Shown: one piece after another, positions 6,840 through 58,472 of the stretch
Position numbering within the stretch: the stretch's first letter is position 1
Layout of the letters: every line of letters begins with the position of its first letter
NCBI GenBank assembly: GCA_963662665.2
Contig: CAXXJS010000014.1
Coordinates: forward strand, 1 to 58,472
Reading direction: 5' to 3'
Source: Candidatus Latescibacterota bacterium
Lineage (GTDB): Bacteria > Latescibacterota > UBA2968 > GCA-2709665
DNA: 58,472 nt
Made by a program: the position numbers and the translations under genes
The notes under the pieces: generated by a model
What the model saw: the letters and a program-made list of their open reading frames with translations, nothing else
Told to the model about the DNA's origin: nothing
Database searches by the model: none

Positions 6840-7006
6840 TCGTCAATATTCGAGTGGTCACCGATCCGTTTTTCTTTAAAGAACACCGAATTTGGAAGCC
6901 GCATCCGGCCATCGGGATCGGAGTTTCATTCATAGGGGGCAATTGCCCCGCCAACGTGGGTCCGCATTCCGCGGAGTCGCCACCAATTCAAGCCGATCCA
7001 GCTTTA

Positions 7007-7756: not shown

Positions 7757-8902
7757 GTGCGGCGACCGGTCTGGATCGTTATTGAAAGCACCATTGCGGC
7801 ATTGTTACTGGCATTTGTCGCTGAAGATCAACCGGAGGGGGCCTCTCCGTCGTCCGCCGCAGGTCCGGAAATAGACGCCTCCCGAAAAAATGCCATCGTC
7901 CGGGCGGTCGAAAGGGTGGCGCCTTCGGTGGTGGGGGTAACGACCGTTACCCTCGAACGATACAACGTCAGGTACGTGCATCCGTTTTTTGATTTCTTTT
8001 CATATCCCGGAACCGTTCACAAGAAGCGGCCGGGGATCGGATCCGGCGTTGTGATCCGATCCGACGGGTACATACTGACCAACTACCATGTCGTGGAAGG
8101 CGCGCGGGAAATCACCGTCACATTTTCGGATGGCCGGAATTACAAGGTTCAGGACACGCGAAAAGACGTAATGGTCGACCGCAGCGCCGACCTGGCGGTC
8201 ATACGGGTAAACGCGAAGAATCTTACGGTTCCCGAACTGGGAGATTCCGAAGACGTCATCATCGGCGAATGGGCGATCGCCATCGGCAATCCATTCGGCC
8301 TTCAGATCGAAGATCCCGAACCGACCGTCACCGTTGGCGTCGTTAGTGCGGTAAAACGAAATTTGAGGCTGGATCAGGACGACGGTGGGCTTTCTTATAC
8401 CAATATGATCCAGACCGACGCGTCGATCAATCCGGGCAACAGTGGAGGACCGCTGGTCAACGGCGTCGGCCAGGTCATCGGCATCAACACATTCATCATC
8501 ACAAAGAGCGGGGGTTCCCTCGGCATCGGATTCGCACTCCCCATCAATCGCGCAAAAGTAATCGCCGACCGATTGATCGCAGGTGGAGTTCAGGAGTTCT
8601 GGTCCGGTTTCGAGTTGCACCCGGCCCTGACGCGCGGCCTCGCGAACGCGCTGGGGCTATACACGCATCGCGGCGCCCTGATTACGCGCGTTACAGACAG
8701 CAGCCCGGCTTCTCGTGCAAGGCTGAATCCGGGAGACCTGATCATTTCGGTGAACGGCCATGCCGTACGAAGCGCCGACGACGTGCACAGGATTCTGAAA
8801 GACGCCCGTATTGGAGACTCGCTTACAATGAACATCCTGCGAGGCACGCTGAGATTTACAACCCTTCTGCAGCCGGAACAGACGCCTGCCGGGCAACGTT
8901 AG
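7757..8902 (+). CDS. HtrA/DegP-family serine protease with one PDZ domain
   Basis: N-terminal hydrophobic anchor; TNYHVV, DLAV, TDASINPGNSGGPL; C-terminal PDZ. Confidence 0.92.
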   Translation: MRRPVWIVIESTIAALLLAFVAEDQPEGASPSSAAGPEIDASRKNAIVRAVERVAPSVVGVTTVTLERYNVRYVHPFFDFFSYPGTVHKKRPGIGSGVVIRSDGYILTNYHVVEGAREITVTFSDGRNYKVQDTRKDVMVDRSADLAVIRVNAKNLTVPELGDSEDVIIGEWAIAIGNPFGLQIEDPEPTVTVGVVSAVKRNLRLDQDDGGLSYTNMIQTDASINPGNSGGPLVNGVGQVIGINTFIITKSGGSLGIGFALPINRAKVIADRLIAGGVQEFWSGFELHPALTRGLANALGLYTHRGALITRVTDSSPASRARLNPGDLIISVNGHAVRSADDVHRILKDARIGDSLTMNILRGTLRFTTLLQPEQTPAGQR

Positions 8903-39439: not shown

Positions 39440-39542
39440 CAGAATTGAAACCAATCCAAAGACTGTAGTTGATGTGATGTCTCGAAAAGCATGACAGGTA
39501 GTGAGGTATGGCGAAATGGTCAGACCCCGAGTTCACAGCCTG

Positions 39543-42289
39543 ATGAAGTCGTTTTCGCTGGCGATATGCGTCGTTGTATTGCTCTGCCAGCCGAGTGTGA
39601 TTACCGCTTCGCCGGTGCAGGCTGACAGCATGCATTTCTGCGCGGTGTTTGACTACGAGCAGTGGCTGCGGGACAACCCTCCGTCGGCCGGCAAGATGGC
39701 AGCGGACCTGGATGTCGGGGAACCGCGGACGGTGCGGATGATCTACTTCCTGCCGAACGACGAGCCTCTTCGTCAGGAAGTGATTGCTTTGATGAAAGTC
39801 AGGATTCGGGAGGTTCAGAGCTTCTATGCCGAGCAGATGGAGGCGCATGGCCACGGGAACAGAACCTTCCGCATCGAAAACGATGCCTTGGGAGAGCCGT
39901 TGGTGCATCGCGTCGACGGTCAACATCCCGGAAGCTACTATCACGAACCTCTTGTGATTAGAGATGAGATTCGGAGGTTCGATCTCCGGGAGAACCTCTA
40001 CTTCATCGTCGTCGACGCTGACTTCAGTCAAATAGCAGGAGTCGGATCACGGTACAACAAGAAGGGTGGCTTTGCGTTGGTAGGAGCAAGTGTGCCCTTT
40101 ACTACGGCAGCCCACGAACTGGGCCATGCCTTCGGCTTGGGTCACGACTTCCGCGATGATGCGTACATCATGTCGTTTGGTCCGGGACGGGATCGGTTAT
40201 CGGCATGCGCTGCCGAGTTTCTTGCCATCCATCCCTATTTCAATCCCGACAGTCCAATTCATGAGACACTGCCACCGACCGTCGAACTCATATCGCCGCG
40301 TGCCTATCCGGCAGGCTCGGAGAGCGTCTCCATTCGACTCAAAGTCGGCGATTCGGATGGGCTTCACCAGGTGATTCTCTACGCTTCTTCGAGGGACTTA
40401 TTCGTTGGTGCCAGGGGATTTCCCGAAGTCAAGGCGTGTCGCGGGTTGTCCGGCGAGAGGGATGTAGTCGTCGAATTCGAGTACGATGGCAGTATTCCCT
40501 CTTCCTCTTTCTCAAGTCTCTCCGATCCGATTGTGCATCCGATCAGGGTCAGGGTCGTTGATACCGGGGGAGACGAGAACTGGAAGGATTTCATACTTTC
40601 AGAGATCTCATCGTACCACATTGCCACCTTGGAAGGGCATTCGGATGGGGTCCGGGCGATGGCGGTTTCTCCCGATGGGGACATTCTGGCTTCCGGGGCG
40701 TCAACTCCTGACGGGGGAAGAGATACCACGGTCAGGCTGTGGGACGTGGCGAGCCGGAAAGAGATCGCCAGGCTCAAAGGGCATTCGAGTGGAGTCACCT
40801 CCGTAGCGTTTTCGCGTGGCAGCGCCCTCCTGGCTTCCGGGTCGAGAGACGGCACGATTCTGCTGTGGGACGTCCCGAGCCGCACCGCAATCGGCAGCCT
40901 TAGAGGGCATAGGCATGGGGCCTGGGCGGTGTCGTTTTCGCCCGACGGTGCCCTCTTGGCTTCGGGAGCGTCGGACTTCACGGTCAGATTGTGGGACGTG
41001 ACGAGCCGCACAGAGATCGGCATCCTGAAGGAGCATTCGTTTTGGGTCACTTCGGTGTCGTTTTCGCCTAACGGTGCCCTTCTGGCAACGGGGTCGTACG
41101 ATGGCGTAGAACTGTGGGACATGGCGAGCCGTACAGAAATCGGCATCCTGTCCAGGGATGGGGTCAGTTCCGTGGGGTTTTCCCGGGATGGAACCCTCCT
41201 GGCAACGGGAATGCTCGATGATACGGTCAGATTGTGGGACGTGGCGAACCGTAAGGAGGTGGGCATCCAAAGTGGTCATACGGATGATGTCCGTTCGGTG
41301 GGGTTTTCGCGGGACGGGACCCTCCTGGCTTCCGGGTCCGAAGACGGAATGGTCATACTGTGGGATGTATTGACAGGGAGAAAAATCGTCGCTTTCCCGG
41401 GTACGGGTCGGGTCCGTTCGGTGGTGTTCTTGGGCGACGATGCCACGCTCGCTTCCGGGTCAGACGACGGCGATATCGCACTGTGGGATGTCTCCCAGTG
41501 GACGGGCCCCCGTCCCTCGGCCTTGGAGACCATCTCCGGCGACGGTCAGCAGGGCGTGTCCGGGGAGCCGCTGGCCCACCCCTTGATCGTGGAAGTGCGG
41601 GATCAGGACGGGAATCCGCTGCCGGGCGCGGCCGTCACCTTCACGGTCACCGCCGGCGAGGGCAAGCTCAGCGGGCGGTCCGTCACAACCGATGCCGACG
41701 GCCGCGCCACCACGATCCTGACCTTGGGGCGTCAGCCGGGTGCCAACACAGTGGTCGCCACCGTGGAAAGACTGGAGCCGGTGGCCTTCACCGCCACCGG
41801 AGTGGCCATTCCCCGGACGCTGAAGAAGCTCTCGGGCGATGAGAGGGAAGGACCGGTGGGGTACCGCCTTGAGCGAGCCCTTCGTGGTCGAAGTGCGGGA
41901 TCAGAACGGCGAAGCTCTCGCCGGGGTCGAGGTCACCTTTGCGATCACCACCGGCGAGGGCACCCTCTCAGTGACCGGCGCCACCACCGATGTCGACGGC
42001 CCGCGCCGCCACCACGCTCACGCTGGACAGCACTCCTGGGACAAATGCCGCGACGGCCACCGTGGCCGGCCTGGACCCGGTGACCTTCACCGCCACCGCC
42101 GAAGCGACCCCCGACTTCGACGGCGACGGGACCGTCGATTTTTCCGACTTTCTGCATTTCGCGTCGCAGTTCGGGTTGAGCAAGGGCGACGAGGGTTTTG
42201 ACGCTCGATTCGATCTGGACGGAAACGGCTCCATTGGGTTTTCGGATTTTCTGATTTTCGCCGGCGCTTTCGGATCGGGCGACTCATAA
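39543..42289 (+). CDS. Secreted metzincin protease - WD40 propeller - Ig-like - dockerin/EF-hand protein, two apparent frameshifts
   Basis: Signal peptide; HELGHAFGLGH; ~7 WD40 repeats; ISGDGQ..VEVRDQ Ig modules; DFDGDGTVDFSDF/DLDGNGSIGFSDF; +1 shifts near 41860 and 42000. Confidence 0.85.
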
Positions 42290-45645: not shown

Positions 45646-45826
45646 TGAACAACGAGGTCAACGGAGACGGACCCGACAGTTGCGGCATCCGCATCCTGGG
45701 TGAAACCCGCGACCGGCCCTTCGTCGACAACCGCATAGGCAATTCACCGAAGCGCAGGCAGAAAATCGGAATCCTTATCGGTGACAAGGCTGGGAATAGC
45801 GAACTCAGGGACAATGACTTATCCGG
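45646..45826 (+). pseudogene. Diverged 3' fragment of the beta-helix gene (paralog of ~43307-43477)
   Basis: CGIRILGETRD...NRIGN...IGILIG...ELRDNDLSG in both. Confidence 0.85.
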
Positions 45827-46000
45827 TGTCAACACCGGTTTTGTTTTTGACAGATGCACCGGTTTAAAATTGGACACAATAGACTGGATGGTGACTGGCT
45901 CGAGTGCCAGCAGGTTGGTGCGGATGCGTCGCTCGAAGCGCTCGTCGCGTTCGCGTGCGAGCATGTCCGCGACGATCTCGACGGGCGGGAAATGCGTCAA
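45827..46000 (-). mobile_element. IS21-family end (type B) with istB N-terminal remnant
   Basis: TGTCAACACCGGTTTT..CACCGGTTTAAAATTGGACA; minus strand VADMLARERDERFERRIRTNL resembles IstB N-terminus. Confidence 0.65.
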
Positions 46001-46488: not shown

Positions 46489-47055
46489 CTATACCCCCTC
46501 CCCCACTCCCGCCAAATCCACCCGAAATTCCGTTCCGATTTCGCATGCCATCTGCCACGACCTTTCGTCCACCTCAATGCCCTCTGATTCGCGGCGTTCG
46601 GCGGTCCTGAACTCCGGTTCACCCGGAGCGAGGATCTCATCGAACCCCGGCGCGAGGCGGCTGGATTTCACGTGGCGCATCAGCCCTTCCACTTCGTCGT
46701 AGAACGTTTCCAGATCCGTGAAGTGTTCGATATCGTAAGCATTGATTAATACGCCGTTGCTGTTCATCTCCCGGTCCCCCGCCGCGCAGCCCTGGCCGCT
46801 CAGCGCCCCGCCCAGCAATTCGACCATGATGCTCAGCCCGTATCCCTTGTGACCCGCGTCACCCCCTAACGGCAATATGGCCCCCGGCGGATCGTCCTTG
46901 AAGTCGTTCGGCTCCGTGGTGGGCTCACCGTGCCCGTCGATGAGCCATCCTTTCGGCACCTTGACGCCCTGGTTGATCGCCAACCTGATCTTGCCCTCTG
47001 CCACGACCGACGTGGTCATGTCCACCAGGATCGGATTTGCGTTCCGCCGCGGCGC
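46489..47055 (-). pseudogene. Ldh_2-family (malate/lactate) oxidoreductase, 3' fragment copy 1
   Basis: ILVDMTTSVVAEGK, LPLGG..GHKGYGL, ILAPGEPE; 5' half absent. Confidence 0.85.
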
Positions 47056-47849: not shown

Positions 47850-48936
47850 GTTAGTGATCGCCCATATGCGGCCACCGCAGGATCGTCTTAATCAGGCCAG
47901 TTGAAGATCGACCCAATCGGGCCACTTGGTTACAATTTGGGTCTCGGACTTCCGATTGACGTCTCTACCTTCTCGCTGTCTCCCCGACAGTCCGGAGGGA
48001 AGGACATGGAAAACCGGAGGATCGAGATGTATCAGCATCGCCAGGTATTGACGCGTATATGGACGGCGTGATGGTTCGTTAATAAGGAACAGAAGCTCAC
48101 GCTCTTTTGTTTTCCAGCTATTGCTTCACGAGAACCGGCACGACGAGCGCGATGACGTGCTTGCACAGAGAAGCCAAACGTAACAACTGAACGGGAGCCA
48201 TCATCCGTGATGACGGCTCCCGTCTTTTCTGTCGTCGTAACCATGGTAGCGGAGGTGTTCGAGCGACTACTCTCCTGCAGACGCAGCGTTGATTTGCGTC
48301 CTTTAGAGTCGTCGAAATTCAGACCTGCGATTGGTCAGGTTAACGACTGACAAACGAAATGCACCGGGAAAATGGAAATTTTCATTAAAAAATCAACGAA
48401 ATCAGCGAAAAATTCAACACAAGTTCATTAAAAATATGTTATATTTAATATTAAGAGATGCGATGAAGTTCACGGAAATGAATCTCCGTCCAAAGCATAC
48501 CAAACCGAAATCGTCGCTAAAGCCCACACTGCCCAGGTGACGGCGCTATTGCCTGTTCCAATCCACGCTTCGCAAATATCGCATCAACAGTTCCAACCCC
48601 GCATACGAGGTGAGGCCTTCACCGGGGAATTCCATCTTCAAATTGTCGTTGACACGCGCGTGCAAATCCGCTTTCTTTCGTCTCACTGTACGTGGCCTTT
48701 CGTTTTGGGTGAAAAGGGTCGTTTGTCGCTTCCCAATATACCCAAATGGAAGGCCTTTTCCTATTGAAAAATAAAGACTTATTCGCATCTATGCTTAGTC
48801 TTCAATACCCGAAATTCATCTACGTAATTTTCGCATTGAGGCTAATTACATGCCCCTTCCGAAACCTCAATATCGCCACTTCCAGGTGGCTCCATTATGC
48901 CGATCATGGGTGGCCTGATTAGGGCGATCCGTGACA
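47850..48936 (+). mobile_element. Internally deleted IS21-family element (left end, istA stub 48006-48071, right end) with foreign filler
   Basis: MENRRIEMYQHRQVLTR istA start with GGAGG RBS; inverted end ...GGCCTGATTAGGGCGATCCGTGACA. Confidence 0.7.
48495..48842 (-). mobile_element. IS1380-family transposase 5' remnant
   Basis: EFPGEGLTSYAGLELL then in-frame stop and truncation. Confidence 0.65.
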
Positions 48937-49113
48937 GAAATCGCGCCCCATTTCCAAGAATAGTACGTGCAGAAGCCATGAATTCATTATCGCATATAAT
49001 CGCTAAAGCCAATAAAGATCAGCCTTGATTCGTCGTTTTTCGGGGACGTTAATTCGAGCCCGATAAGTGTTCGTGCACCAGACGAATATTGAAGAACAGG
49101 TGGAGGATAAAGA

Positions 49114-49743
49114 GTGAGGTTGCAGCTTATTTTCTTCATATTGCTTAGTTTATTTTGGTTAAAGGCCGAGGTTGAAGCTGATAACCACTGGCGACTTACA
49201 AAGGATCACTCGCCATTTTCAGGAATGGATGTGCTGACCATTCGTGGCCGAATACACCATGCGTATAGTTCCTGGTACGATTCTCCCGCACCAGGCGATT
49301 CGCTCTATTGCGTCTTGTTGATTTCTCCCACCATGATTGCTATCGATTATCCGTTGGAACGGCTTCCTCGCTGGGATAGGTCAAGTACTTTTCAGCAAGA
49401 TGTTGTGGTCAAATTCAGGGGGAAGGATAGACGTCCTAAATTAGTAGGTGTGTTTCCCAAGTCTTTTTGCGAGGTCTTCGATGATCGTAATCTCTTGTTG
49501 ATGATGCCAAAGGATCGACCCACCTTAATATGGGCGTTATTTCAGGATGAATTCCGCTCAGCCCAGGTATATTTGCAAACTTTACCCAAGCGGAAGGTCG
49601 GGCGACATCCAATGGAACTCGTAAAGGATCTTGATTTCGAACACTTTCAATTCAACCTTACGGGTTCCGGGAAAGCCATAAGAAAGTTATTTGAGGTCAC
49701 CAATACCGATACGACGATCTACACTTCTGTTGATTGGAGGTAG
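49114..49743 (+). CDS. Hypothetical exported protein
   Basis: GGAGG RBS; signal peptide. Confidence 0.65.
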   Translation: MRLQLIFFILLSLFWLKAEVEADNHWRLTKDHSPFSGMDVLTIRGRIHHAYSSWYDSPAPGDSLYCVLLISPTMIAIDYPLERLPRWDRSSTFQQDVVVKFRGKDRRPKLVGVFPKSFCEVFDDRNLLLMMPKDRPTLIWALFQDEFRSAQVYLQTLPKRKVGRHPMELVKDLDFEHFQFNLTGSGKAIRKLFEVTNTDTTIYTSVDWR

Positions 49744-49745
49744 CT

Positions 49746-50513
49746 ATGATTCTCCTTCTAATAGGTACGCTATCCGCTTATGCACAGGTGGGTCATATAG
49801 CCATTGGTACTGCGCCAGAACCAGGTATTATCGGTCGCGTGATTGTCGATTTTCACGAAGCTGGAGAATTCAAGGTATTTGAGTCACCTACATCAGAACA
49901 TTCGGTGTTGGAATCAGATGGTAAAATTGTGCGTTGGTATGGGAATAGTCTGTGCAAGTTTGGTTATTCGGGCAATTGTTCCAGGTTATTTTATCTAAAA
50001 CAACACATGGCGGGTGATGCTTCTCTCTGGTTGCCTTATTTTAAGGAATTGGTGGTGGATGGGCAAACCTGGTATCTCATCAATTGGTTTACCCCACCTT
50101 CACGTGATAGTCGTCACATCGGACTCAATTTTGGTTGGGTTTCGGAAGCGCATTTCCCCAAAGCACAGACACTCCAAGAGATTGTTGAAGCACACGAGGG
50201 CATGTTTTGTCTTACCAGGAAATTGGATTATCCGCTATTCTATAGCGAATTAGACGGGGAGCCCAGGGAACTCGCGGCGGATCCAAAGGTTGTGTGTAAT
50301 GCCTGGGACTTGATGGAAAAGGGGTTAGAGAATAAGATAGACGTCCAAGAGTTCGTCACATTTCAGGGGGTCGAATATGTAAAGGTGAAGATGGATATTT
50401 TTATCTGTGATCCACTAAAGAACAACCCAGAGCCGGTCTCCTTCGAAGGATATATCAAGTTCTGGGGTGAGGATTCACGATCGAATATTTGGGTGTGTTA
50501 TATGGGTTGTTGA
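49746..50513 (+). CDS. Hypothetical exported protein
   Basis: GGAGG RBS; signal peptide ending AYA; C-terminal CYMGC. Confidence 0.65.
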   Translation: MILLLIGTLSAYAQVGHIAIGTAPEPGIIGRVIVDFHEAGEFKVFESPTSEHSVLESDGKIVRWYGNSLCKFGYSGNCSRLFYLKQHMAGDASLWLPYFKELVVDGQTWYLINWFTPPSRDSRHIGLNFGWVSEAHFPKAQTLQEIVEAHEGMFCLTRKLDYPLFYSELDGEPRELAADPKVVCNAWDLMEKGLENKIDVQEFVTFQGVEYVKVKMDIFICDPLKNNPEPVSFEGYIKFWGEDSRSNIWVCYMGC

Positions 50514-50709
50514 ACATTGTGGTGGACCGTGAACTGCAGTTCAGATCTGATAATCCGGCTCTTCTCCAATTATCGCCAATATCCTAATTTGGTAGGTTTT
50601 AATGAAATCCGTCTAAATTGCCGGTTTCCAGATGTTTATGACCGCCCAGATGCGGTCTGGACACCGGCTGTGAATTCTGCATACGAATGCGGTTAATTTT
50701 AGGTTTAGT

Positions 50710-50738
50710 TTGACAAGCGCAAAAAATCACACTATAAG
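50710..50738 (+). promoter_or_regulatory. Sigma70-type promoter
   Basis: TTGACA-17nt-TATAAG. Confidence 0.6.
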
Positions 50739-50791
50739 TTGGATGAGGCCAGACGTCATTGATGAAACAGACACTCGACAGAGGATAGGCA

Positions 50792-51274
50792 ATGTCGCGT
50801 CCCAAGACTCTTGAAACGCTCATGGATGAGTTAAAACGCCGATTTGAGGACTACGAGGCAGTTGGTATGCGTGTTCGCCTGAACACATGGAGATTGGGAG
50901 AATCCCTAAACGAACTCAAAACAGCAACATCGGGACCAATCTTCGTGGGTGTGTTGCAAAGCACTGGAATAGAGGAACGTGTCGCCAGAAACGTGATTGA
51001 TTTCTACCTGCAACACCCCGGTTTGGATTTCGCTGAGAACCTTGACGAAGAAGACGATCAAGCAGTACTGGTAGTCAAACGTCTGTCTCGAGCGATTGAT
51101 GATGCTAATGCTCAAACTGACCGCCTTCGAGAAGAGTTAAAGGAAGAGAAAACAAAAAACGCGGCGGATCTACGCCGAATCAAATCACTCGAAAAAGCAG
51201 TCACGGAGTTGTCGATGGCTAACGGCAAATTGCACGGTACCATTGATGAGCTACGACAGGAAACGCGGGTGTAG
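50792..51274 (+). CDS. Phage-like coiled-coil protein, DUF3102-like N-terminus
   Basis: WRLGESLNELK...F...L...GIEERVARNVI pattern; C-terminal heptads. Confidence 0.55.
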   Translation: MSRPKTLETLMDELKRRFEDYEAVGMRVRLNTWRLGESLNELKTATSGPIFVGVLQSTGIEERVARNVIDFYLQHPGLDFAENLDEEDDQAVLVVKRLSRAIDDANAQTDRLREELKEEKTKNAADLRRIKSLEKAVTELSMANGKLHGTIDELRQETRV

Positions 51275-51377
51275 ACGACCTCCTTCAGCTCGTGCTTGGG
51301 AGACAATCTGGTCATCGCCGTTAACCGGATCAAGCCAATGCGGAATTACCTCAACCTGTCTTGGAGACGCTAATCAC

Positions 51378-52817
51378 ATGTCGCTAGATTTCAATGTCAT
51401 AGACGTCGAGACAGCTAACGCTGATCGTGCAAGTATCTGTCAGATTGGTATCGTCCACGTACGGGAGGGAGTAATCACAGATCACTGGCAGTCACTCGTC
51501 AATCCGAACGCCTGGTTTGATCCTCTCAATGTTTCAATTCACGGAATCAATGCGAAGGATGTGAAGAATAGTCCATCCTTGTCCGACATCGGTAGAGAAT
51601 TGTACTGCCTGAGCGGGTCCATACTTATCAGCCACACCTCATTTGATCGTGTCGCCATTGAACGCGCATTGGAGAAGCATAATCTTGAACCCCTACGCGT
51701 CACTTGGCTTGACAGTGCAAGAATTGTCCGTCGTGCATGGCCCGAACAATATGGAAAAAGTGGTTGGGGGCTCAAGAAGGTCGCCACAGACCTTGATATT
51801 GTCTTTAATCACCATGATGCATTGGACGATGCAAAGGCAGCAGCTGAGATTGTATTGAGGGCTTGCACAGCTACCGAGACAGGAATTGCAGATTGGCTGC
51901 ATCTAGTTAAACGACCGATTTTTCAGCCATCTGACAGGGCCGTTTCTTCTAGGCCGGAGGCTAATCCGGATGGTTCTCTGTATGGTGAGACAACATTGTT
52001 CACAGGTGAATTAAGTGTTTCTCGAAGTGATGCCCGCGAACTTGCGGCACAGGCCGGTTGCAATGTGGTCGATAATGCCACCAAGAAGGTCACAATGTTA
52101 GTTGTAGGGACTCAGGACGGACACAAATTAAAAGGATATGAAAAGAGTTCGAAACACCGGAGAATTGAAGAATTGATTAGCAAAGGAGAAGACATCGATA
52201 TTCTTTCGGAGTCCGATTTCTTCGTACTCCTGGGTATAGACAGATCGGAAATAGCCGCCAGCGCGAAGTCACCTCGGCCGAGCGCAAAGAAGAAAAAAGG
52301 CGGGGCCGAGTTTGGTGTTGTATTTTCGCTTGGTCCAGCGAGCACATTTGAAGAAAACGAACGTGAATATGATGTCGATATCTACGAAGATGCGAGTATA
52401 CCCTACGCTGAAATTGTAACATACGTAGATGCGGCGACTCACTACCTCAAAAACCTCGATGGATGCAGCATGAATGACCCAATTATCTTGGCAAAGGAAT
52501 CTGCGTGTGAAAAGGAGTCAAGCCGTATAGAGGTTTATTGCAAAGAAAATACAATTGGCTACCTCCCGAAGAACCTTGCAAGAAAAGTCGGACCACATTT
52601 GGACGCGGATGGGACGTATGAAGCATTTCTTGAGGATGACTGGGAGGACTTCGAGGAAGACGATGCTGATCAGAACAACGTTGGATTAATTATTCGGATC
52701 AACTTGGATGTGATGCCGGATGAATTGGTGAAGGAAGGGCGAAAGGTGGAACCACCCACCGAGGAGGCGTTAGAGGCCCTAAGGAAAGTGATTGAAGATT
52801 TGGAAGCTGGCCGCTAG
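51378..52817 (+). CDS. DEDDh 3'-5' exonuclease - BRCT - HIRAN-like fusion
   Basis: IDVETAN, HHDALDDA; FTGEL..SR..A..AG BRCT; IEVY...IGYLPKNLA HIRAN-like. Confidence 0.8.
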   Translation: MSLDFNVIDVETANADRASICQIGIVHVREGVITDHWQSLVNPNAWFDPLNVSIHGINAKDVKNSPSLSDIGRELYCLSGSILISHTSFDRVAIERALEKHNLEPLRVTWLDSARIVRRAWPEQYGKSGWGLKKVATDLDIVFNHHDALDDAKAAAEIVLRACTATETGIADWLHLVKRPIFQPSDRAVSSRPEANPDGSLYGETTLFTGELSVSRSDARELAAQAGCNVVDNATKKVTMLVVGTQDGHKLKGYEKSSKHRRIEELISKGEDIDILSESDFFVLLGIDRSEIAASAKSPRPSAKKKKGGAEFGVVFSLGPASTFEENEREYDVDIYEDASIPYAEIVTYVDAATHYLKNLDGCSMNDPIILAKESACEKESSRIEVYCKENTIGYLPKNLARKVGPHLDADGTYEAFLEDDWEDFEEDDADQNNVGLIIRINLDVMPDELVKEGRKVEPPTEEALEALRKVIEDLEAGR

Positions 52818-53176
52818 CCGCAACGGTCGATGTGCTCTAACTCGGGGCCCGTTGTTATCCTGTACTGCGGAACATGGGTGGAATGAGGGGTACTAAGAGT
52901 TGGAAAGGAATCGTCCGGGAGGTCAGAATCATGGAAGAGCCATTTCATTTTCCAATTGACACGTCTCGACGTTGCTACTTGGTCTGCCAAGCGCGCACAG
53001 CACCCCGGATTTCTTGAGTGCCTGTTGTACGCTGCGGTCTTCTGACCGCACAAGGAGCGTCTCATGCCGTTCTGTTCTATACGTAACTCTGTTTAAAGTG
53101 TCCAGTTCTGAACTGGAGGATCTGTCAAAAACACAATCGCCGTGATCCCGAAGGCATCCACAGCAAAGGAATCCAA

Positions 53177-54853
53177 ATGCCTGCAACTTTAGAAGCAAAA
53201 GAACGGAAGCTCATGGATGTCTTCGATGATAGGTACACATTTAATATCCCGCCATATCAGCGTCCCTATGCTTGGACGACGGAACAGACTAGCGAATTAC
53301 TCGACGACCTCTTGTACGCAATTCGCGGGGTCGAATCGGTGGATAAATCTCCACCGTATTTCCTTGGCAGCATCGTTGTTATAAAGAAAAAGGAATCTTC
53401 GGTGGCAGAGGTAGTTGATGGGCAGCAGCGCTTGACGACCCTTACTATATTGCTCTGTGTGTTGCGTGAACTTGCTGAAGATAAACAGACAAAGGATGAA
53501 CTGGATGCATTCGTCTGGCAGAAAGGAAGCAGGATAAAAGGCACCGCGCCCGTCTTTCGCGTTACTCTTCGAGAGCGCGATAGCGATTTTTTCCGAAAAA
53601 ATGTACAGACGCCGGGTAAACTATCGAATTTCGTTGAAAGAGATGTCACGAAATGGGCAGACAGTCAGCAGCGGATATTTGAGAACACGAAGCAGCTTTG
53701 GCAGGAACTCCGAAGTTGTACTCGAGAGGAACGAGACGTTCTCGCGATGTTTATCACTCAACGGTGCTATGTCGTAATTGTTTCGACATCCGACCAGAAT
53801 TCGGCCTACCGTATCTTTTATGTAATGAATGACAGAGGGCTGGACTTGTCCCCAACAGATATCTTGAAGGCTGAGATAATTGGGGCCATGGATGACCGAG
53901 TCCGTTTGAAATACACGGAAGTTTGGGAGGACATCGAGGACGACGTTGGTCGTGACAAATTCAGAGATCTCTTTACGCACATACGGATGATATATGTGAA
54001 GGAAAAGGCACGTGGAGAACTAAGCGAAGAGTTTCGTAATGGTGTATTGAATCACGTGAAGAACGGGGATTTTGTGGACGAAGTACTCACTCTATATGCT
54101 GATGTCTATAAGACAGTAGTTGGAATGGATGAAGAAAGTAGGGCCAATGCCAACGACGTCAACCAATACCTTCAATATCTGGGGCGACTTGACAACTTTG
54201 ATTGGATTCCACCCGCAATGGCATTTTTTAGTAAGGATCCAAGCGAGATTGAAAAACTCCAGTTCGTTCGTGCCCTAGAACGTCTAGCTTATGGGATGTT
54301 TATTCTGCGGCTGAATATCAATAAACGCATAAGTAGATATGCGCGGATTCTTGTGGCCATAGAGGGAGAGGAGGATCTGTACGTGGAATCGGGACCGTTC
54401 GATTTTTCCTCTGTTGAGAGGAAGGAGATACTGCAAATATTGGACGGCCCCGTGTTCTCGCTACCGCGAGTACCCAGACCACTTCTACTTCGGCTCGACA
54501 GCCTACTGGCCGACGTCGGCGCAAGATATGATTACCCGACAATTACTATTGAGCACGTGCTTCCACAAAATCCGGCCATAGATTCTGAATGGGTTACAGT
54601 GTTTCACGATGAAGAGGAACGTGAGCAATGGACACACCGGCTCGGAAATCTGGTCTTGCTGTCTCGGCGGAAGAATTCACAGGCACAAAACTACGAGTTT
54701 GAACGTAAGAAAAGGGACTATTTCCAAACTCGTGTTGCGCCATTCGCCATTACCGTAGAGGTGGTCAATCAATCAAAATGGACACCGGCTGTCATTGAAC
54801 AGCGTCAGAAAATGCTTATTGACTTACTGAGGGTTGAATGGCGTTTGGATTGA
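53177..54853 (+). CDS. DUF262 + DUF1524 protein (GmrSD-type modification-dependent restriction)
   Basis: IPPYQRPYAW, VDGQQRLTT, MNDRGLDLS, IEHVLPQ, LGNLVLL..N. Confidence 0.9.
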   Translation: MPATLEAKERKLMDVFDDRYTFNIPPYQRPYAWTTEQTSELLDDLLYAIRGVESVDKSPPYFLGSIVVIKKKESSVAEVVDGQQRLTTLTILLCVLRELAEDKQTKDELDAFVWQKGSRIKGTAPVFRVTLRERDSDFFRKNVQTPGKLSNFVERDVTKWADSQQRIFENTKQLWQELRSCTREERDVLAMFITQRCYVVIVSTSDQNSAYRIFYVMNDRGLDLSPTDILKAEIIGAMDDRVRLKYTEVWEDIEDDVGRDKFRDLFTHIRMIYVKEKARGELSEEFRNGVLNHVKNGDFVDEVLTLYADVYKTVVGMDEESRANANDVNQYLQYLGRLDNFDWIPPAMAFFSKDPSEIEKLQFVRALERLAYGMFILRLNINKRISRYARILVAIEGEEDLYVESGPFDFSSVERKEILQILDGPVFSLPRVPRPLLLRLDSLLADVGARYDYPTITIEHVLPQNPAIDSEWVTVFHDEEEREQWTHRLGNLVLLSRRKNSQAQNYEFERKKRDYFQTRVAPFAITVEVVNQSKWTPAVIEQRQKMLIDLLRVEWRLD

Positions 54854-54932
54854 TGCTCTGCCCGCCTTTATTTACCCCTACGTGCCACTATAGAGTGAGA
54901 AAACTTCCCCTCCAGTATTCAATTGACCTTGG

Positions 54933-55265
54933 TTATGGGTTCTGCGATTCCCATTCGGCCAATGCTTCACGGGCATTGTCTGCTGAACTAACAGTCGGAA
55001 GCGATAAGTACTGAGGGGTTTTTCTGATCTCGTTATATATTCTCCTGTGCATCACGAGCTCCCTCAGCGTGCCTGACTCCGGCGAAATCAGGGTTCTGCC
55101 GGCGGTTCCCGTGATAGGTGCCCGACTTTCCCGCCACAGGGTCGGAAAAGATGCGAACAACCGTAAGGCTGTCGTTATCAATGTAGGCGGAGAAAAGCTC
55201 TCTTGCTTCTTGACTGAGCTCATAAAATGTGACCGCGATCTCAATGTCCAACTCGGTGTTGCCAA
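54933..55265 (-). pseudogene. Internal fragment of OLD-family ATP-dependent endonuclease, frameshifted
   Basis: IEIAVTFYEL...LTVVRIF...KSGTYHG...PDFAGVR, continuing YNEIR..YLSLP in a second frame. Confidence 0.5.
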
Positions 55266-55645
55266 AACAAAAGCCAAGCAACAGACCAGTCTCTGCCTTG
55301 AGGGTGGTGGAACATGTAATGCTCAATTCCGGTAGGGCTGTACGAAAGAATTTGAGTAATATCTTCGTTGGGACTTGGTACTTTAATCAACTTCGCGCCA
55401 CCCTCAACATGAGATTTCGGAATGCCAGTATTGTCATCGCCTCTGGCATCCAGTACATACAGATCAAACTCTTCCCCTTTTGAGACCAACCAAAACCTCC
55501 CATTCGGGATATTGCTCTTTACCCAACGACCCTTATTCTCTGAGGCAGCTGGCCAAGGGTGAAAATAACCCCACCCGTTAGAACTCCCACATTCTATTAT
55601 TGCAAATCCCTTTTCTTCTGCAATCACCGATCCTGCCAGAAACAA
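55241..55645 (-). CDS. Hypothetical protein fragment
   Basis: Protein-like composition; ends fused to neighbouring fragment. Confidence 0.35.
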   Translation of the reverse strand: MFLAGSVIAEEKGFAIIECGSSNGWGYFHPWPAASENKGRWVKSNIPNGRFWLVSKGEEFDLYVLDARGDDNTGIPKSHVEGGAKLIKVPSPNEDITQILSYSPTGIEHYMFHHPQGRDWSVAWLLFWQHRVGH

Positions 55646-55943
55646 GACCCAAATCGGAATTCCGGGTTCCAGCGTGTCGCTCGATGATGAGGACCTCGCG
55701 CAAATTCTGCAGGTTCCTTCCTCGTGAACTCGGTTGGCGTCGTCAGTCCAACCCTACCCGGACAAGGTCGCGTCGTGGAGACGTCAGTAGCATGGACGGA
55801 ATGAATTTATTTATTTTAACATCGCTCAATCCCTTTGAGAATCTGGTCAAGTTTTTTTCTTGGCTGAATTAGGCCGTGACGACTACGACGAGAGTGTCAC
55901 CCAATACGAGGCATCCTGCAGCTTTATAATATGGGCAAGTGTT

Positions 55944-56174
55944 TCAGTTGCCGTTATCGTCGAGGATCTTTGACGCGAATTCTCTAAGCTCTTCTGACTG
56001 GATTGAAAGTTTTATCTCATCCTCCCGCCCTTTGAACGTACCGTGTAATATCAGGCATGTTACACCGGCTTCCCAGAGAATTTCGGCGTATGTTATAGAT
56101 TCAACTTTGAAAGTATCTCCAATATGTACCTGTAATTCACTGTCGGATTCCTTGATACGGATCTTTTTTCGCAT
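55944..56174 (-). CDS. Small hypothetical protein
   Basis: GGAGG RBS + ATG; 76 aa. Confidence 0.6.
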   Translation of the reverse strand: MRKKIRIKESDSELQVHIGDTFKVESITYAEILWEAGVTCLILHGTFKGREDEIKLSIQSEELREFASKILDDNGN

Positions 56175-56349
56175 TTTTAATCCTCCGAAGTTGAGTCGAC
56201 AAAGGGGTAAACGAAACTATCGGACCCTTTTAATAGGTGAGGTGGATTGATCTATTAAAAGAGACGTGCATCGAATGAAATAAGTCGGCATTAGTGCCGG
56301 AGGGAGCCGTGCCAATTGGGGAAGATGAACATTGACGCATTCTGTGAAC

Positions 56350-56713
56350 TCAACTCTCCCCCACTCCCGCCAAATCCACCCCAAATTCCGCTCCGATTTC
56401 GCAGACGGTTTCCCACGTCCGGTCGTCCACCTCGATCCCCTCATCGGCCCGGATGCGCGCGGTGCGGAACTCCGGTTCGCCGGGGGCGAGGATTTCATTG
56501 AATCCCGGTGCGAGGCGGCTGGATTTCACGTGGCGCACCAACCCCTCCACCTCGTCGTAGAACGTTTCCATATCCGTGAAGTGTTCAATATCGTACGCAT
56601 TGATCAACACGCCGTTGCTGATCATCTCCCGGTCCCCCGCCGCGCTACCCCTGGCCGCTGAGCGCCCCGCCCAGTAATTCGACCATAATGCTCAATCCAA
56701 ATCCTTTGTGACC
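56350..56713 (-). pseudogene. Ldh_2-family oxidoreductase, 3' fragment copy 2 (frameshifted, cut by IS21 end)
   Basis: GHKGFGLSIM...SNGVLINAYDIEHFTD...ILAPGEPE; homologous to 46489-46855. Confidence 0.85.
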
Positions 56714-56960
56714 TGTTAATGATCGCCAATATGGGACCAATGCGGGATCGGCCTAATCAGGCCACCTGGGATGCGATTGAGGTTACGGACTTTCCGGCAA
56801 CGCATCTGCCTTCTGAGTGTCTCCCCGACAATCAGGAGGGAAGAACATGGCAAACCGGAGGTTTGAGATGTTTCAGTATCGCCAGGTATTGACGCGTATG
56901 CGGTTGGGCGATTCGGATCGTGCGATCACCCGTCAGGGTTGATGGGTCGGCAGAAGGCCT
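56714..56960 (+). mobile_element. IS21-family left end with truncated istA (ATG 56847)
   Basis: TGTTAATGATCGCC end; MANRRFEMFQYRQVLTRMRLGDSDRAI. Confidence 0.8.
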
Positions 56961-57287
56961 GCGCTTGAAGGCAAATATGAAAAGTGGGTTCGTTTGACGA
57001 ATCAGCCTCAGGTATTTCCTCATGCATCGAGAGCACCCCATATTGAAATTTCTTGAATAGTCCCATAGGAGACAGATCAAAATGTGTTTCGTGGTATGTG
57101 ATTGACCTCGGGAATTCACTAATGCTTTTTCATCAATCATCACAATCTATCCTCTCGCCCCTTGACGCAACGTTCAGGATCTACATGTTGATCAGCCATA
57201 AGACGCTCTGTTCCGGAAGCGACTGACTCAGGACCCGGCGCTGGCGTTCACACCTAAATCATGATCCAAGTCCCATCACTAATTTCA

Positions 57288-57327
57288 AAGCCCAGGGTTG
57301 ATGGAACCCCGGGCTTATTTTTTCTTT
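57288..57327. terminator. Intrinsic terminator, possibly bidirectional
   Basis: aagccc-a-gggtt-gatgg-aaccc-c-gggctt then long T tract on + strand. Confidence 0.75.
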
Positions 57328-57335
57328 ATTCTGTT

Positions 57336-57551
57336 TCACGAATAATATCTGTGAGTCGTTTTCGGTATCCCGTGTTTTCGCCGAGGGTTCTTGCAATCCT
57401 CTTTTTCACACATAAACCCCGGGCGGGCCGGCTTGTATGAACAATCACGGCACTTGTGAAATATGTTGGCCGTGAGATCCGAGAAACTGCGATCTATACA
57501 GATAACACGAAGCAGGTAGCGGCAGACGTACCATCTAAATGGAGCAGCCAT
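57336..57551 (-). CDS. Small Cys/His-rich putative zinc-binding protein, paralog A (71 aa)
   Basis: AGGAGG RBS, own promoter, homology to 57932-58168. Confidence 0.85.
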   Translation of the reverse strand: MAAPFRWYVCRYLLRVICIDRSFSDLTANIFHKCRDCSYKPARPGFMCEKEDCKNPRRKHGIPKTTHRYYS

Positions 57552-57575
57552 CTGATGCCTCCTTTGTGTGTTTCT

Positions 57576-57604
57576 ATCTTATGTCATTCCAGAGTAGATG
57601 TCAA
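57576..57604 (-). promoter_or_regulatory. Sigma70 promoter of paralog A
   Basis: TTGACA-17nt-TAAGAT. Confidence 0.75.
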
Positions 57605-57651
57605 GCTGTCTCCTTCCCGGGAAGTTCCTCCACCATTTCTATCTCCTGAGG

Positions 57652-57708
57652 TGTCAACACTGGTTTTGTTTTTGACAAAAGCACCGGTTTGAAATTGGAC
57701 ACAATAGA
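57652..57708 (+). mobile_element. IS21-family end (type B), second copy
   Basis: Near-identical to 45827-45883. Confidence 0.7.
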
Positions 57709-57878
57709 CAGGAAGATTAGTCAAACGGTTTGCAGGCCATGAGGGATGGCTTGAGGCGTCCAGCGTGTTAGCCCGATGATACGACGCTCGCGGAGGTTCC
57801 GCAGGATTCCTTCCCTGCGGCCTCAGTCAGCATGGTCGGGCCTATCCTGCCGGGCAACGGTCAACGCATTATGGACTA

Positions 57879-57907
57879 TTGACTTCCCTAGAACTATTGC
57901 TTAATAT
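57879..57907 (+). promoter_or_regulatory. Sigma70 promoter of paralog B
   Basis: TTGACT-17nt-TAATAT. Confidence 0.7.
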
Positions 57908-57931
57908 TTGATTAGACAAAGGGGGTATCCG

Positions 57932-58168
57932 ATGAATCATCAATTCAAGTGGTGGTGCTGTAGGTATCTGTTGCGGGTCATTTTCGTCCGGGACAATAGA
58001 GCCACAAAGAACAGGCCTAACCCAGCTCTCATTGTCCACCGGTGCAGGGATCTGAAATATCGGCCCGACAGACCTGATATGACCTGCGATAAGGAAGATT
58101 GCGAGAACTGCCGTCGGAAACACGGCCGGCCGCGGACTGTTTTGCATTATTTGACTGAGGGCGCGTAG
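57932..58168 (+). CDS. Small Cys/His-rich putative zinc-binding protein, paralog B (78 aa)
   Basis: AAAGGGGGT RBS, own promoter, homology to 57336-57551. Confidence 0.85.
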   Translation: MNHQFKWWCCRYLLRVIFVRDNRATKNRPNPALIVHRCRDLKYRPDRPDMTCDKEDCENCRRKHGRPRTVLHYLTEGA

Positions 58169-58192
58169 CATCGATTAGCGGAATTAAGAGAT

Positions 58193-58225
58193 AAGCCCAG
58201 GGCGATCGAACCGCTCTGGGCTTTT
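58193..58225 (+). terminator. Intrinsic terminator of paralog B
   Basis: aagcccag-g-gcg-atcgaac-cgc-t-ctgggctt-tt. Confidence 0.75.
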
Positions 58226-58472
58226 GATAATATGCGTGACAATCTGAGAATACATAGGGTGTCCGGATTCTGGAGATCTTCAGGTCAAAGTGGATCAATC
58301 ATCGCGATTATGCCTGCCCTGACTGGGAGGATCCGCGACCGGGGATGATCTTTCTTGAGTCAAGCGCCACAAAGACAACCGGACTCCATACTTGGGAAGG
58401 CCTACGCACCACCCATTTCGCCCGTGAATTCCAGTGACTGTTGTCTCCTACATCGATTCTTGACCTCATCTC

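What the first reader, a model, noticed from the sequence alone, without database searches (positions are those of the whole stretch)
57288..58225. Divergent pair of self-contained mini-cassettes encoding an unknown small Cys/His protein family
Seen: 71- and 78-aa paralogs share F.W..CRYLLRVI...H.CRD..Y.P.RP...C.KEDC.N.RRKHG.P.T (4 Cys, 2 His, basic). Each has a near-consensus sigma70 promoter, a short leader with a strong RBS, and a homologous terminator (ATAAGCCC.GGG...CTGGGCTTT) whose inner stem differs but still pairs. An IS21 end lies between them. Inference: a selected, mobile, highly expressed zinc-binding microprotein module (nucleic-acid binder, toxin, or defence/anti-defence factor) of no family I recognise.
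Basis: partly seen in the sequence, partly recalled or inferred. Interest (0 to 1): 0.75.

Follow-up and report, generated by a model that had tools for sequence, protein, structure and literature searches.

The report
Orphan four-cysteine microprotein gene pair
Two small neighbouring genes encode members of a previously undescribed family of tiny, mostly basic, four-cysteine proteins found only in one genus of sponge-associated bacteria; they are real and under selection, but their function is unknown and they are not shown to be mobile.

Summary
Window 57339-57551(-) and 57932-58165(+) encode 71- and 78-aa paralogs (47% identity, E 1e-22). Each has its own sigma70-like promoter, consensus Shine-Dalgarno sequence and 12-bp hairpin. 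IS21-family debris lies between them.

The genes are real. Orthologs show dN/dS of 0.07-0.24, and the signals recur across the family.

The family is an orphan. Pfam, NCBIfam, PHROGs, PADLOC, PDB sequences and fold searches gave no match. There are only 25 clusters among 5.8 billion proteins, none named. Six-frame profile hits occur in 11 of 168 genomes of the phylum, all in one genus, with 1-5 copies each and at least 13 subtypes.

Twelve columns are invariant, including four Cys (C-x23-28-C-x13-C-x4-C).

"Mobile cassette" is not supported. Each subtype sits at its own syntenic site, no repeats bound the cassettes, and the 78-aa gene stands alone in seven other genomes. The genes do lie in IS21-littered flexible regions far more often than chance predicts.

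Expression is predicted from the signals. The only data are metatranscriptome contigs from one study.

Best guess (about 0.4): an intracellular Cys4 metal-binding microprotein that binds nucleic acid or the transcription machinery.

The parts
57288..57316 (-). Hairpin after the 71-aa gene (12-bp stem, 5-nt loop, tail UUUGAAA); terminator-like
   Evidence: -20.6 kcal/mol, z -4.67, 0/200 shuffles as good. Not flagged by the strict terminator rule because the T tail is short.
57336..57551 (-). A71: 71-aa Cys4 microprotein gene, stop included; the only member of its subtype (at most 68% identity to any other member)
   Evidence: pI 9.61, net charge +9, 6 Cys
57558..57564 (-). Shine-Dalgarno AAGGAGG, 6 nt before the ATG of A71
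   Evidence: sequence; strong SD in 26 of 31 family copies against 51 of 600 control long ORFs
57576..57604 (-). Sigma70-like promoter of A71, TTGACA-17-TAAGAT
   Evidence: 10 of 12
57650..57725 (+). Solo remnant of an IS21-family right terminal repeat. The outer end TGTCAACAC is at 57652; the element's interior would lie to the right but is deleted.
   Evidence: The same repeat abuts an IstB_IS21 gene (Pfam 8.5e-63) in L060.
57726..57860 (+). Internal fragment of an IS21 istA transposase gene (pseudogene piece)
   Evidence: 82-83% identical to part of the 433-aa rve-domain ORF on contig C38
57879..57907 (+). Sigma70-like promoter of B78, TTGACT-17-TAATAT
   Evidence: 9 of 12; conserved in the orthologs
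57919..57925 (+). Shine-Dalgarno AAGGGGG, 6 nt before the ATG of B78
   Evidence: sequence
57932..58168 (+). B78: 78-aa Cys4 microprotein gene, stop included; the subtype with orthologs in 7 other genomes
   Evidence: dN/dS 0.07-0.24 in 28 ortholog pairs; pI 9.74, net charge +9
58193..58223 (+). Hairpin after the 78-aa gene (12-bp stem, 7-nt loop, tail UUUUGAUAA overlapping the stem); terminator-like
   Evidence: -22.1 kcal/mol, z -4.84, 0/200 shuffles as good. Not flagged's strict rule.
56714..56968 (+). IS21-family left end plus the first ~31 codons of istA. It is truncated, and it cuts off the Ldh_2 fragment to its left.
   Evidence: 94% identical to C38:4059-4195, next to the full istA-like ORF
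56348..56713 (-). 3' fragment of a malate/L-lactate dehydrogenase (Ldh_2) gene; a second copy of 46498-46854

Best explanation
The two ORFs are genuine, separately transcribed genes of a genus-restricted orphan family of 70-78-aa proteins. I propose that the protein folds around one metal centre held by the four invariant cysteines (Zn(Cys)4, or possibly an iron-sulfur cluster). I further propose that it acts inside the cell by binding nucleic acid or a component of the transcription or translation machinery, as a small regulator or modulator. The family has diversified by duplication within the genus into at least 13 subtypes. Each subtype is inherited vertically at its own site in IS-rich, flexible parts of the chromosome. 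In this genome, IS21-driven rearrangement has brought two subtypes back to back.

Shown: gene reality, purifying selection, expression signals, taxonomic restriction, invariant residues, IS21 debris and synteny.

Inferred: metal binding, intracellular location, nucleic-acid or machinery binding, and a regulatory role.
For: Gene reality:
- dN/dS is 0.07-0.24 in 28 pairs of B78 orthologs and 0.07-0.81 in the 21 pairs of the other groups that gave an estimate.
- The sense frame is intact in 8 of 8 orthologs. The antisense frame has stops in 2 of 8.

Autonomous units:
- Strong SD in 26 of 31 distinct copies against 51 of 600 control ORFs.
- Sigma70 match of at least 9/12 in 13 of 31 against 37 of 600.
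- Hairpins with z about -4.7.

Metal site: 12 invariant columns in 40 sequences, including C10, C34, C48 and C53 together with F5, W7, D36, Y39, N55, G61 and P63 in A71 numbering.

Intracellular and nucleic-acid-like character:
- No N-terminal signal-like hydrophobic stretch, by reading the sequences.
- Median pI 9.25 and median net charge +7; both window proteins are +9. GRAVY is -0.68.
- An R/K cluster (NPRRKHG.PK) follows the last Cys.

No partner gene: neighbours differ between subtypes.

Restriction: 11 of 168 genomes of the phylum have a match, all in one genus. There are 25 of 45 candidates among 5.8 billion proteins.

Vertical inheritance: synteny within subtypes.
Against: - No structural support. 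AlphaFold2 gave mean pLDDT 63.2 and 58.3. The best Foldseek E was 1.7 and the best VIA Z was 2.5.
- The Cys spacing has no CxxC knuckles typical of zinc ribbons.
- Basic charge is not universal: the family pI range is 6.05-9.98 and net charge runs from -1 to +12.
- 4 of 14 genomes of the genus have no copy (95-100% complete), so the family is dispensable.
- No binding or expression experiment exists. The RNA-library contigs extend about 260 nt upstream of the predicted promoter and may include DNA.
Confidence: 0.4

Rival explanations
1. A defence or counter-defence accessory factor: a small protein acting with or against phage-defence systems, carried in defence islands.
For: - The window pair lies at the end of a lower-GC stretch (0.46-0.50 against a genome value of 0.588). 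That stretch holds a GmrSD-type nuclease (PADLOC Orf5, 1.8e-174) and a DEDDh exonuclease (PDC-S48, 1.3e-27).
- One distant copy follows a type I R-M methylase gene (L055). A WYL-HTH regulator lies between the two copies in L045.
- Distribution is patchy (10 of 14 genomes of the genus), and the family has diversified fast into 13 subtypes.
Against: - No PADLOC or PHROG hit for the proteins themselves.
- Most subtypes sit between ordinary metabolic or signalling genes.
- Selection within subtypes is purifying, not an arms-race pattern.
Confidence: 0.15
2. A mobile mini-cassette: promoter, gene and terminator move as a unit, on their own or carried by IS21.
For: - DNA similarity to 5 of 7 other genomes starts and stops almost exactly at 57867 and 58226.
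- 8 of 14 IS21 right-end repeats in five genomes lie within 4 kb of a family gene, against 0.066 expected (P 6e-16, kin not independent). Left-end copies cluster there too.
- A71 is flanked by IS21 remnants on both sides.
Against: - No direct or inverted repeats bound either cassette.
- The two IS21 remnants around A71 are not the two ends of one element: both have their interior to the right.
- Each subtype keeps its own syntenic neighbours across genomes.
- Genomes without B78 lack the whole surrounding segment, not just the cassette.
- Sharp similarity edges are expected wherever a selected gene sits in fast-drifting spacer DNA.
Confidence: 0.1
3. A cationic, tryptophan-rich toxic or antimicrobial peptide (leaderless-bacteriocin-like), or a host-directed effector.
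For: - Cationic, aromatic N-terminus FKWWCCRYLLRVI.
- Strong stand-alone expression signals.
- Lineage-specific and multi-copy.
- The bacteria are known only as MAGs from sponge metagenomes (record titles; run labels).
Against: - No neighbouring immunity, transporter or secretion genes recur.
- The protein is hydrophilic overall (GRAVY -0.68).
- Four invariant Cys in a cytoplasmic protein point to a metal site rather than disulfides.
Confidence: 0.1
4. Not genes at all: chance ORFs or conserved non-coding DNA in IS debris.
For: The ORFs are short, lie amid IS fragments, and an antisense frame is open in 6 of 8 orthologs.
Against: - dN/dS is far below 1.
- 12 columns are invariant across 40 sequences that differ by up to 75%.
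- The SD sequence is conserved at a fixed distance from the ATG.
- Gene callers of several sources predicted the same proteins.
Confidence: 0.02

Closest known systems
WhiB-like (Wbl) proteins of Actinobacteria
   Same: Both are small, lineage-restricted and present as several paralogs per genome. Both have four invariant Cys and positively charged residues after the last Cys, with no recognisable DNA-binding domain. Wbls act through the primary sigma factor (PMC6282962, passages read; PMC13013590, abstract in the listing).
   Different: - WhiB1 has its Cys at positions 9, 37, 40 and 46, followed by a G[V/I]WGG turn, and is helical. This family has C-x23-28-C-x13-C-x4-C, no such turn, and is predicted beta-rich at low confidence.
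- No Pfam hit of any kind at E up to 10.
- The phylum is different.
Small one-domain zinc-finger proteins of haloarchaea (e.g. Brz)
   Same: Stand-alone proteins under about 80 aa whose main feature is a Cys-based metal motif. Brz regulates transcription of a neighbouring gene (PMC2253796, abstract in the listing).
   Different: - Those carry CPXCG-type paired knuckles. The motif name comes from the search term and title listing; its details are recalled.
- This family has no CxxC pair among its invariant Cys.
- No sequence similarity was detected.
Ribosomal protein bL36
   Same: A tiny basic protein with a metal site and a tail that looks alike by eye (C..NP.HKQRQG against C.NPRRKHG).
   Different: - Profile-profile comparison gave probability 0.55% over 5 columns.
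- Every genome searched already has one canonical bL36 (26 of 26).
- Rejected.
IS21-family insertion sequence (applies to the DNA between and beside the genes, not to the proteins)
   Same: The terminal repeat begins with TGT and carries internal direct repeats. It lies next to an IstB_IS21 gene in full copies, and the element has an rve-domain IstA-like ORF.
   Different: In the window only remnants survive: about 75 bp of the right end, about 135 bp of internal istA, and about 255 bp of the left end. No intact element is present.

Membership tests
Wbl (WhiB-like) family | Four invariant Cys spaced as in WhiB1 (C9, C37, C40, C46, i.e. ...C-x2-C-x5-C) | tested here: not met
   Four invariant Cys are present, but the spacing is C-x23-28-C-x13-C-x4-C. 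The Wbl spacing comes from PMC6282962.
Wbl (WhiB-like) family | G[V/I]WGG motif after the last Cys | tested here: not met
   Absent from all 40 aligned sequences. The motif comes from PMC6282962.
Wbl (WhiB-like) family | Match to the Pfam family model | tested here: not met
   0 Pfam families of any kind at E up to 10 for both proteins.
Ribosomal protein bL36 (PF00444) | Sequence or profile similarity to bL36 | tested here: not met
   hhalign of A2 against A4 gave probability 0.55%, E 0.11, 5 columns. No Pfam hit.
Any solved structure or known fold | Sequence or fold match to a PDB entry | tested here: inconclusive
   - Profile against PDB sequences: 0 hits at E up to 10.
- Foldseek best E 1.7.
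- VIA wide best Z 2.5.
- The models are of low confidence (pLDDT 63 and 58), so a known fold is not excluded.
Known anti-phage defence proteins (PADLOC) and phage protein families (PHROGs) | Profile match | tested here: not met
   0 families at E up to 0.01 in PADLOC and at E up to 10 in PHROGs.
Zn(Cys)4 metalloprotein (generic) | Four conserved ligand residues | tested here: met
   C10, C34, C48 and C53 (A71 numbering) are invariant in 40 of 40 sequences.
Zn(Cys)4 metalloprotein (generic) | Bound metal, and its identity | not testable with these tools
   Needs metal analysis and spectroscopy of purified protein.
IS21 family (the intergenic repeat 57650-57725) | Terminal repeat adjacent to istB in full copies; istA with a DDE/rve core | tested here: met
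   - The repeat boundary is sharp at TGTCAAC in 12 oriented copies.
- IstB_IS21 at 8.5e-63 ends about 40 bp from the repeat in L060.
- rve at 2.5e-09 in the 433-aa ORF of C38.
Mobile gene cassette (integron-like or MITE-like) | Bounding recombination sites or terminal repeats, and filled/empty site pairs | tested here: not met
   - No repeats bound 57288-57604 or 57867-58226.
- There is no clean empty site: genomes without B78 lack the whole segment.

The most novel reading that the evidence does not exclude
The family is a new class of lineage-specific, metal-cluster-bearing transcription modulators. It would be a functional counterpart of the actinobacterial Wbl proteins, invented independently in one genus of uncultured sponge symbionts. 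Its paralogs would each tune a different regulon, and its genes would be preferred landing sites or partners of an IS21-family element.
Probability: 0.1. Interest if true: 0.7.

Novelty: new variant of a known kind. Interest (0 to 1): 0.4.

Why it matters
Small proteins are under-annotated. Here a whole family has escaped naming, although gene callers predicted its members in public MAGs: 33 matches, two of them broken (one truncated, one with an internal stop), in 11 genomes of one genus of sponge-associated bacteria. The family has clear selection, invariant residues and strong expression signals. If it proves to be a metal-dependent regulator, it would add an independent example of lineage-specific Cys4 microprotein regulators. 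It would also give a handle on gene control in an uncultured symbiont group. The tight co-location with IS21 debris may point to a target preference of that element. As it stands, this is a well-documented orphan family, not a new mechanism.

Tried and rejected
- Family and structure look-ups. Pfam, NCBIfam, PHROGs and PADLOC returned no family for either protein. A PDB sequence profile gave 0 hits. The ESM Atlas gave no usable hit for B78 or for the L018 copy.
- Structure. Two AlphaFold2 runs with 30- and 40-row alignments reached only pLDDT 63.2 and 58.3. Foldseek on the PDB gave a best E of 1.7, and VIA-align wide gave 3 of 48,161 chains at Z of at least 2, the best being 2.5. Nothing usable came of it, and no claim of a new fold is made.
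- bL36 resemblance. Rejected by hhalign.
- HNH-like reading of C..C/N..RRKHG. Considered by eye. There was no Pfam hit of any kind, and the D-H catalytic pair (recalled) is absent.
- Hairpin as a genome-wide repeat. Only 25 CCCNGGG-armed hairpins exist in 4.86 Mb, of mixed sequence, so this is not a REP family.
- Known RNAs. Only one sub-threshold Rfam match (snoZ188, E 0.23) and no tRNA.
- Conserved partner gene. None found across 23 loci.
- Empty-site search. Four genomes of the genus without the family, plus one (G009) that has the family but no 78-aa subtype, showed no clean excision site.
- Hybrid promoter from the IS21 end. The terminal TTGACA faces A71, but no -10 follows at 16-18 nt (read).
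- Sequencing runs. No RNA-library contig covered A71. DNA runs X1 and X5 hold the same arrangement at 100% identity, but they may be the source samples.
- The search of earlier findings returned nothing.
- Two hits were set aside. P0017 is a low-complexity repeat protein. P0015 (900 aa) looks like a gene call that runs from a family fragment into a downstream signal-peptide protein.
Full report
**1. The observation**

The window is a whole contig (G000:C14, 58,472 bp), and the finding lies at its right end. Both ORFs are present. A71 is at 57339-57551 on the minus strand and encodes 71 aa. B78 is at 57932-58165 on the plus strand and encodes 78 aa. They are clear paralogs, with 35 of 75 residues identical and E 1e-22.

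The consensus scan finds TTGACA-17-TAAGAT (10/12) upstream of A71 and TTGACT-17-TAATAT (9/12) upstream of B78. It found six promoter-like sites in 56500-58472 against 2.4 +/- 1.4 in shuffles. AAGGAGG and AAGGGGG lie 6 nt before the two ATGs.

Each gene is followed by a 12-bp GC-rich hairpin, at -20.6 and -22.1 kcal/mol with z of -4.67 and -4.84. In each case 0 of 200 shuffles folded as well. The tool's stricter terminator rule did not flag them because their T tails are short. They are therefore terminator-like, not proven terminators.

**2. Are they genes?**

Yes.
- Eight orthologs of B78 give dN/dS of 0.07-0.24 in all 28 pairs.
- The other ortholog groups give 0.07-0.81 in the 21 pairs with an estimate. 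Three pairs of very distant members are saturated.
- The sense frame is open in 8 of 8 orthologs. The fully overlapping antisense frame has stops in 2 of 8.
- Among 31 distinct copies, 26 have a strong Shine-Dalgarno sequence, against 51 of 600 control ORFs of at least 300 aa in the same genome.
- 13 of 31 have a sigma70 match of at least 9/12, against 37 of 600. My rule misses the frequent TTGACA-17-TAATGT type.
- 24 of 31 have a downstream hairpin of -15 kcal/mol or better, against 108 of 200. This last difference is weak in a 59% GC genome.
- No known RNA family or tRNA lies in the region.

**3. The family**

No known family matches. Pfam, NCBIfam and PHROGs gave nothing at E up to 10, and PADLOC gave nothing at E up to 0.01. 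A family profile finds no PDB sequence at E up to 10.

The family is very small in public data:
- In 5.8 billion clustered proteins, a single-sequence search found 13 of 13 candidates and a profile search found 25 of 45. None has a name or a Pfam domain.
- An exhaustive phmmer run over 1.84 billion representatives found 7 hits. One is a low-complexity artefact. One is a 900-aa gene call that appears to run from a family fragment into the next gene.

Taxonomic spread:
- A six-frame profile search of 168 genomes of the phylum found matches in 11.
- All 11 are in the window's genus: 10 of 14 other genomes plus G000. Outside the genus the count is 0 of 153.
- There are 33 matching places in all, 1-5 per genome. 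One copy is truncated and one carries an internal TGA.
- The four genomes of the genus without a copy are 95-100% complete.
- Public records holding the 78-aa type are MAGs labelled Candidatus Latescibacterota or Gemmatimonadota. Several runs that hold part of the stretch are labelled sponge metagenome. General background on sponge-associated Latescibacterota was seen only as a search listing.

At 75% identity, the 31 distinct sequences fall into 13 subtypes. A71 is a singleton, at most 68% identical to any other member.

**4. The protein**

In 40 aligned sequences, 12 columns are invariant. In A71 numbering they are M1, F5, W7, C10, C34, D36, Y39, C48, C53, N55, G61 and P63.

The window proteins have pI 9.6-9.7 and net charge +9. 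The family median is pI 9.25, but the range is 6.05-9.98, so the most distant members are not basic.

AlphaFold2 gave only low-confidence, beta-rich models (pLDDT 63.2 and 58.3). Fold searches gave nothing (best Foldseek E 1.7, best VIA Z 2.5). The ESM Atlas gave nothing either. I therefore make no statement about the fold.

**5. Surroundings and the mobility claim**

*The intergenic DNA.* The DNA between the genes is IS21-family debris.
- 57650-57725 is a repeat with a sharp outer boundary at TGTCAAC. In full copies elsewhere it lies about 40 bp from the end of an IstB_IS21 gene (Pfam 8.5e-63).
- 57726-57860 is an internal piece of istA. It is 82-83% identical to a 433-aa rve-domain ORF on contig C38.
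- To the left of A71, 56714-56968 is an IS21 left end with the first codons of istA. It cuts off an Ldh_2 gene fragment at 56348-56713.
- The two remnants around A71 both have their interior to the right, so they are not the two ends of one element.

*Boundaries.* No repeats bound either cassette.

*Synteny.*
- In seven other genomes the 78-aa gene stands alone, with no partner within 8 kb.
- It lies in a partly syntenic, IS-scrambled neighbourhood of a beta-helix protein, Ldh_2 and sigma54 activators.
- Other subtypes each keep their own neighbours across genomes. L044 and L047 share five gene clusters, and L052 and L057 share eight.
- Across subtypes the neighbours are unrelated: phosphatase, methyltransferase, molybdoenzyme, PPIase, sensor kinases, LRR proteins, a type I methylase and a WYL regulator.

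*Empty sites.* The genomes searched that lack the 78-aa gene lack the whole surrounding segment rather than the cassette alone.

*What the sharp edges mean.* The sharp edges of DNA similarity at 57867 and 58226 are what a selected gene in drifting spacer DNA would show. So 'self-contained' is right, and 'mobile' is not supported.

*The IS21 association.* 8 of 14 copies of the IS21 right-end repeat in five genomes lie within 4 kb of a family gene, where 0.066 are expected (P about 6e-16 under uniform placement; related genomes are not independent). Left-end copies cluster in the same places. One family copy in G009 is cut by the IS end. The insertion points differ between genomes for orthologous genes. 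Whether this reflects a target preference, a shared habitat in flexible regions or past IS-mediated movement is left open (notebook).

*Composition.* The last 10 kb of the contig are lower in GC (0.46-0.50 against 0.588). They hold a GmrSD-type nuclease and a DEDDh exonuclease that match defence models.

**6. Expression**

Only contigs could be laid. In two metatranscriptome libraries from one study, a contig about 92% identical covers 57657-58175 in one library and 57657-58226 in the other, at word depths of 100.6 and 80.6. These are the highest depths among the contigs laid from those runs.

This is a weak hint that an ortholog of B78 is transcribed, for two reasons:
- The contigs begin in the IS21 repeat, about 260 nt upstream of the predicted promoter.
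- DNA carry-over cannot be excluded.

Nothing covers A71 in those libraries (see Tried and rejected).

**7. Mechanism and comparison**

The best-supported reading is a cytoplasmic microprotein folded around a Cys4 metal centre. Its aromatic (F5, W7, Y39) and basic residues would contact nucleic acid or a protein of the expression machinery. Only the sequence features are shown; the rest is inference, which I put at about 0.4.

*Closest analogy in behaviour: the Wbl family.* Wbls are small, restricted to one lineage and present as several paralogs. They have four invariant Cys holding a [4Fe-4S] cluster and basic residues after the last Cys, with no classical DNA-binding domain, and they act through the primary sigma factor (PMC6282962, passages read; PMC13013590, abstract only). 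Membership fails on Cys spacing, on the G[V/I]WGG motif and on the Pfam model.

*Haloarchaeal one-domain zinc-finger proteins such as Brz* (PMC2253796, abstract only) are a second analogy, without sequence similarity.

*A resemblance to bL36* was tested and rejected.

*Rivals.* Defence or counter-defence factor (0.15), mobile cassette (0.1), cationic toxin or effector (0.1), not a gene (0.02).

**8. Verdict**

This is a real, well-delimited, selected orphan family. I found no description of it. It matched none of the Pfam, NCBIfam, PHROGs or PADLOC libraries, no source gives it a name, and the three literature searches I ran were not aimed at this family and turned up nothing on it. Supplementary files of papers were closed and could hold gene lists I did not see.

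It is a new variant of a known kind, the small Cys4 metal-binding protein. It is not a new mechanism, and it is not shown to be mobile. Interest is moderate at 0.4: the function is open, the organisms are uncultured, and the decisive tests are ordinary biochemistry.

Noticed in passing
window 48001-57300: A lower-GC stretch (0.46-0.50 against a genome value of 0.588). It carries a GmrSD-type nuclease (53177-54853, PADLOC Orf5 1.8e-174), a DEDDh/RNase_T-BRCT-HIRAN protein (51243-52817, PDC-S48 1.3e-27) and several ORFs with no family. It looks like an acquired defence islet.
   Followed up: partly
window 56348-56713 and 46498-46854: The 3' part of an Ldh_2 gene is present twice at 85-89% identity. 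The right-hand copy ends exactly at an IS21 left end, and the left-hand copy belongs to a split Ldh_2 reading frame (46489-47025).
   Followed up: partly
window 53089-53139, 45825-45888, 57650-57713: Three copies of the IS21 right-end repeat lie on this contig. The one at 53089-53139 is inverted and weaker (73-78%). The segments they bracket (45.8-53.1 kb and 53.1-57.7 kb) were not resolved into elements.
   Followed up: no
L059 (G009:C1:2584541-2585805): A family copy is interrupted after about 46 codons by an IS21 right end that still has istB-like sequence behind it.
   Followed up: partly
L045 (G009:C1:3426909-3442669): A second case of two family genes close together (7001-7213 on the plus strand and 8561-8770 on the minus strand, convergent). 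A WYL-HTH regulator gene lies between them.
   Followed up: no
P0015 (900 aa) and window 39501-42083: A public gene call fuses the C-terminal 45 residues of a family member in frame to a signal-peptide, WD40-repeat protein. The window has an 860-aa WD40 protein 15 kb upstream. Whether the two are orthologs was not checked.
   Followed up: no
L009 7660-7757 and 11559-11687: Two short repeats of about 98 and about 128 bp near the 78-aa gene recur at dozens of sites in genomes of the genus, in a MITE-like way.
   Followed up: no
G004:C110:10669-10884: One distant family copy has an in-frame TGA in the six-frame match. It may be a pseudogene or an alignment that runs past the stop.
   Followed up: no
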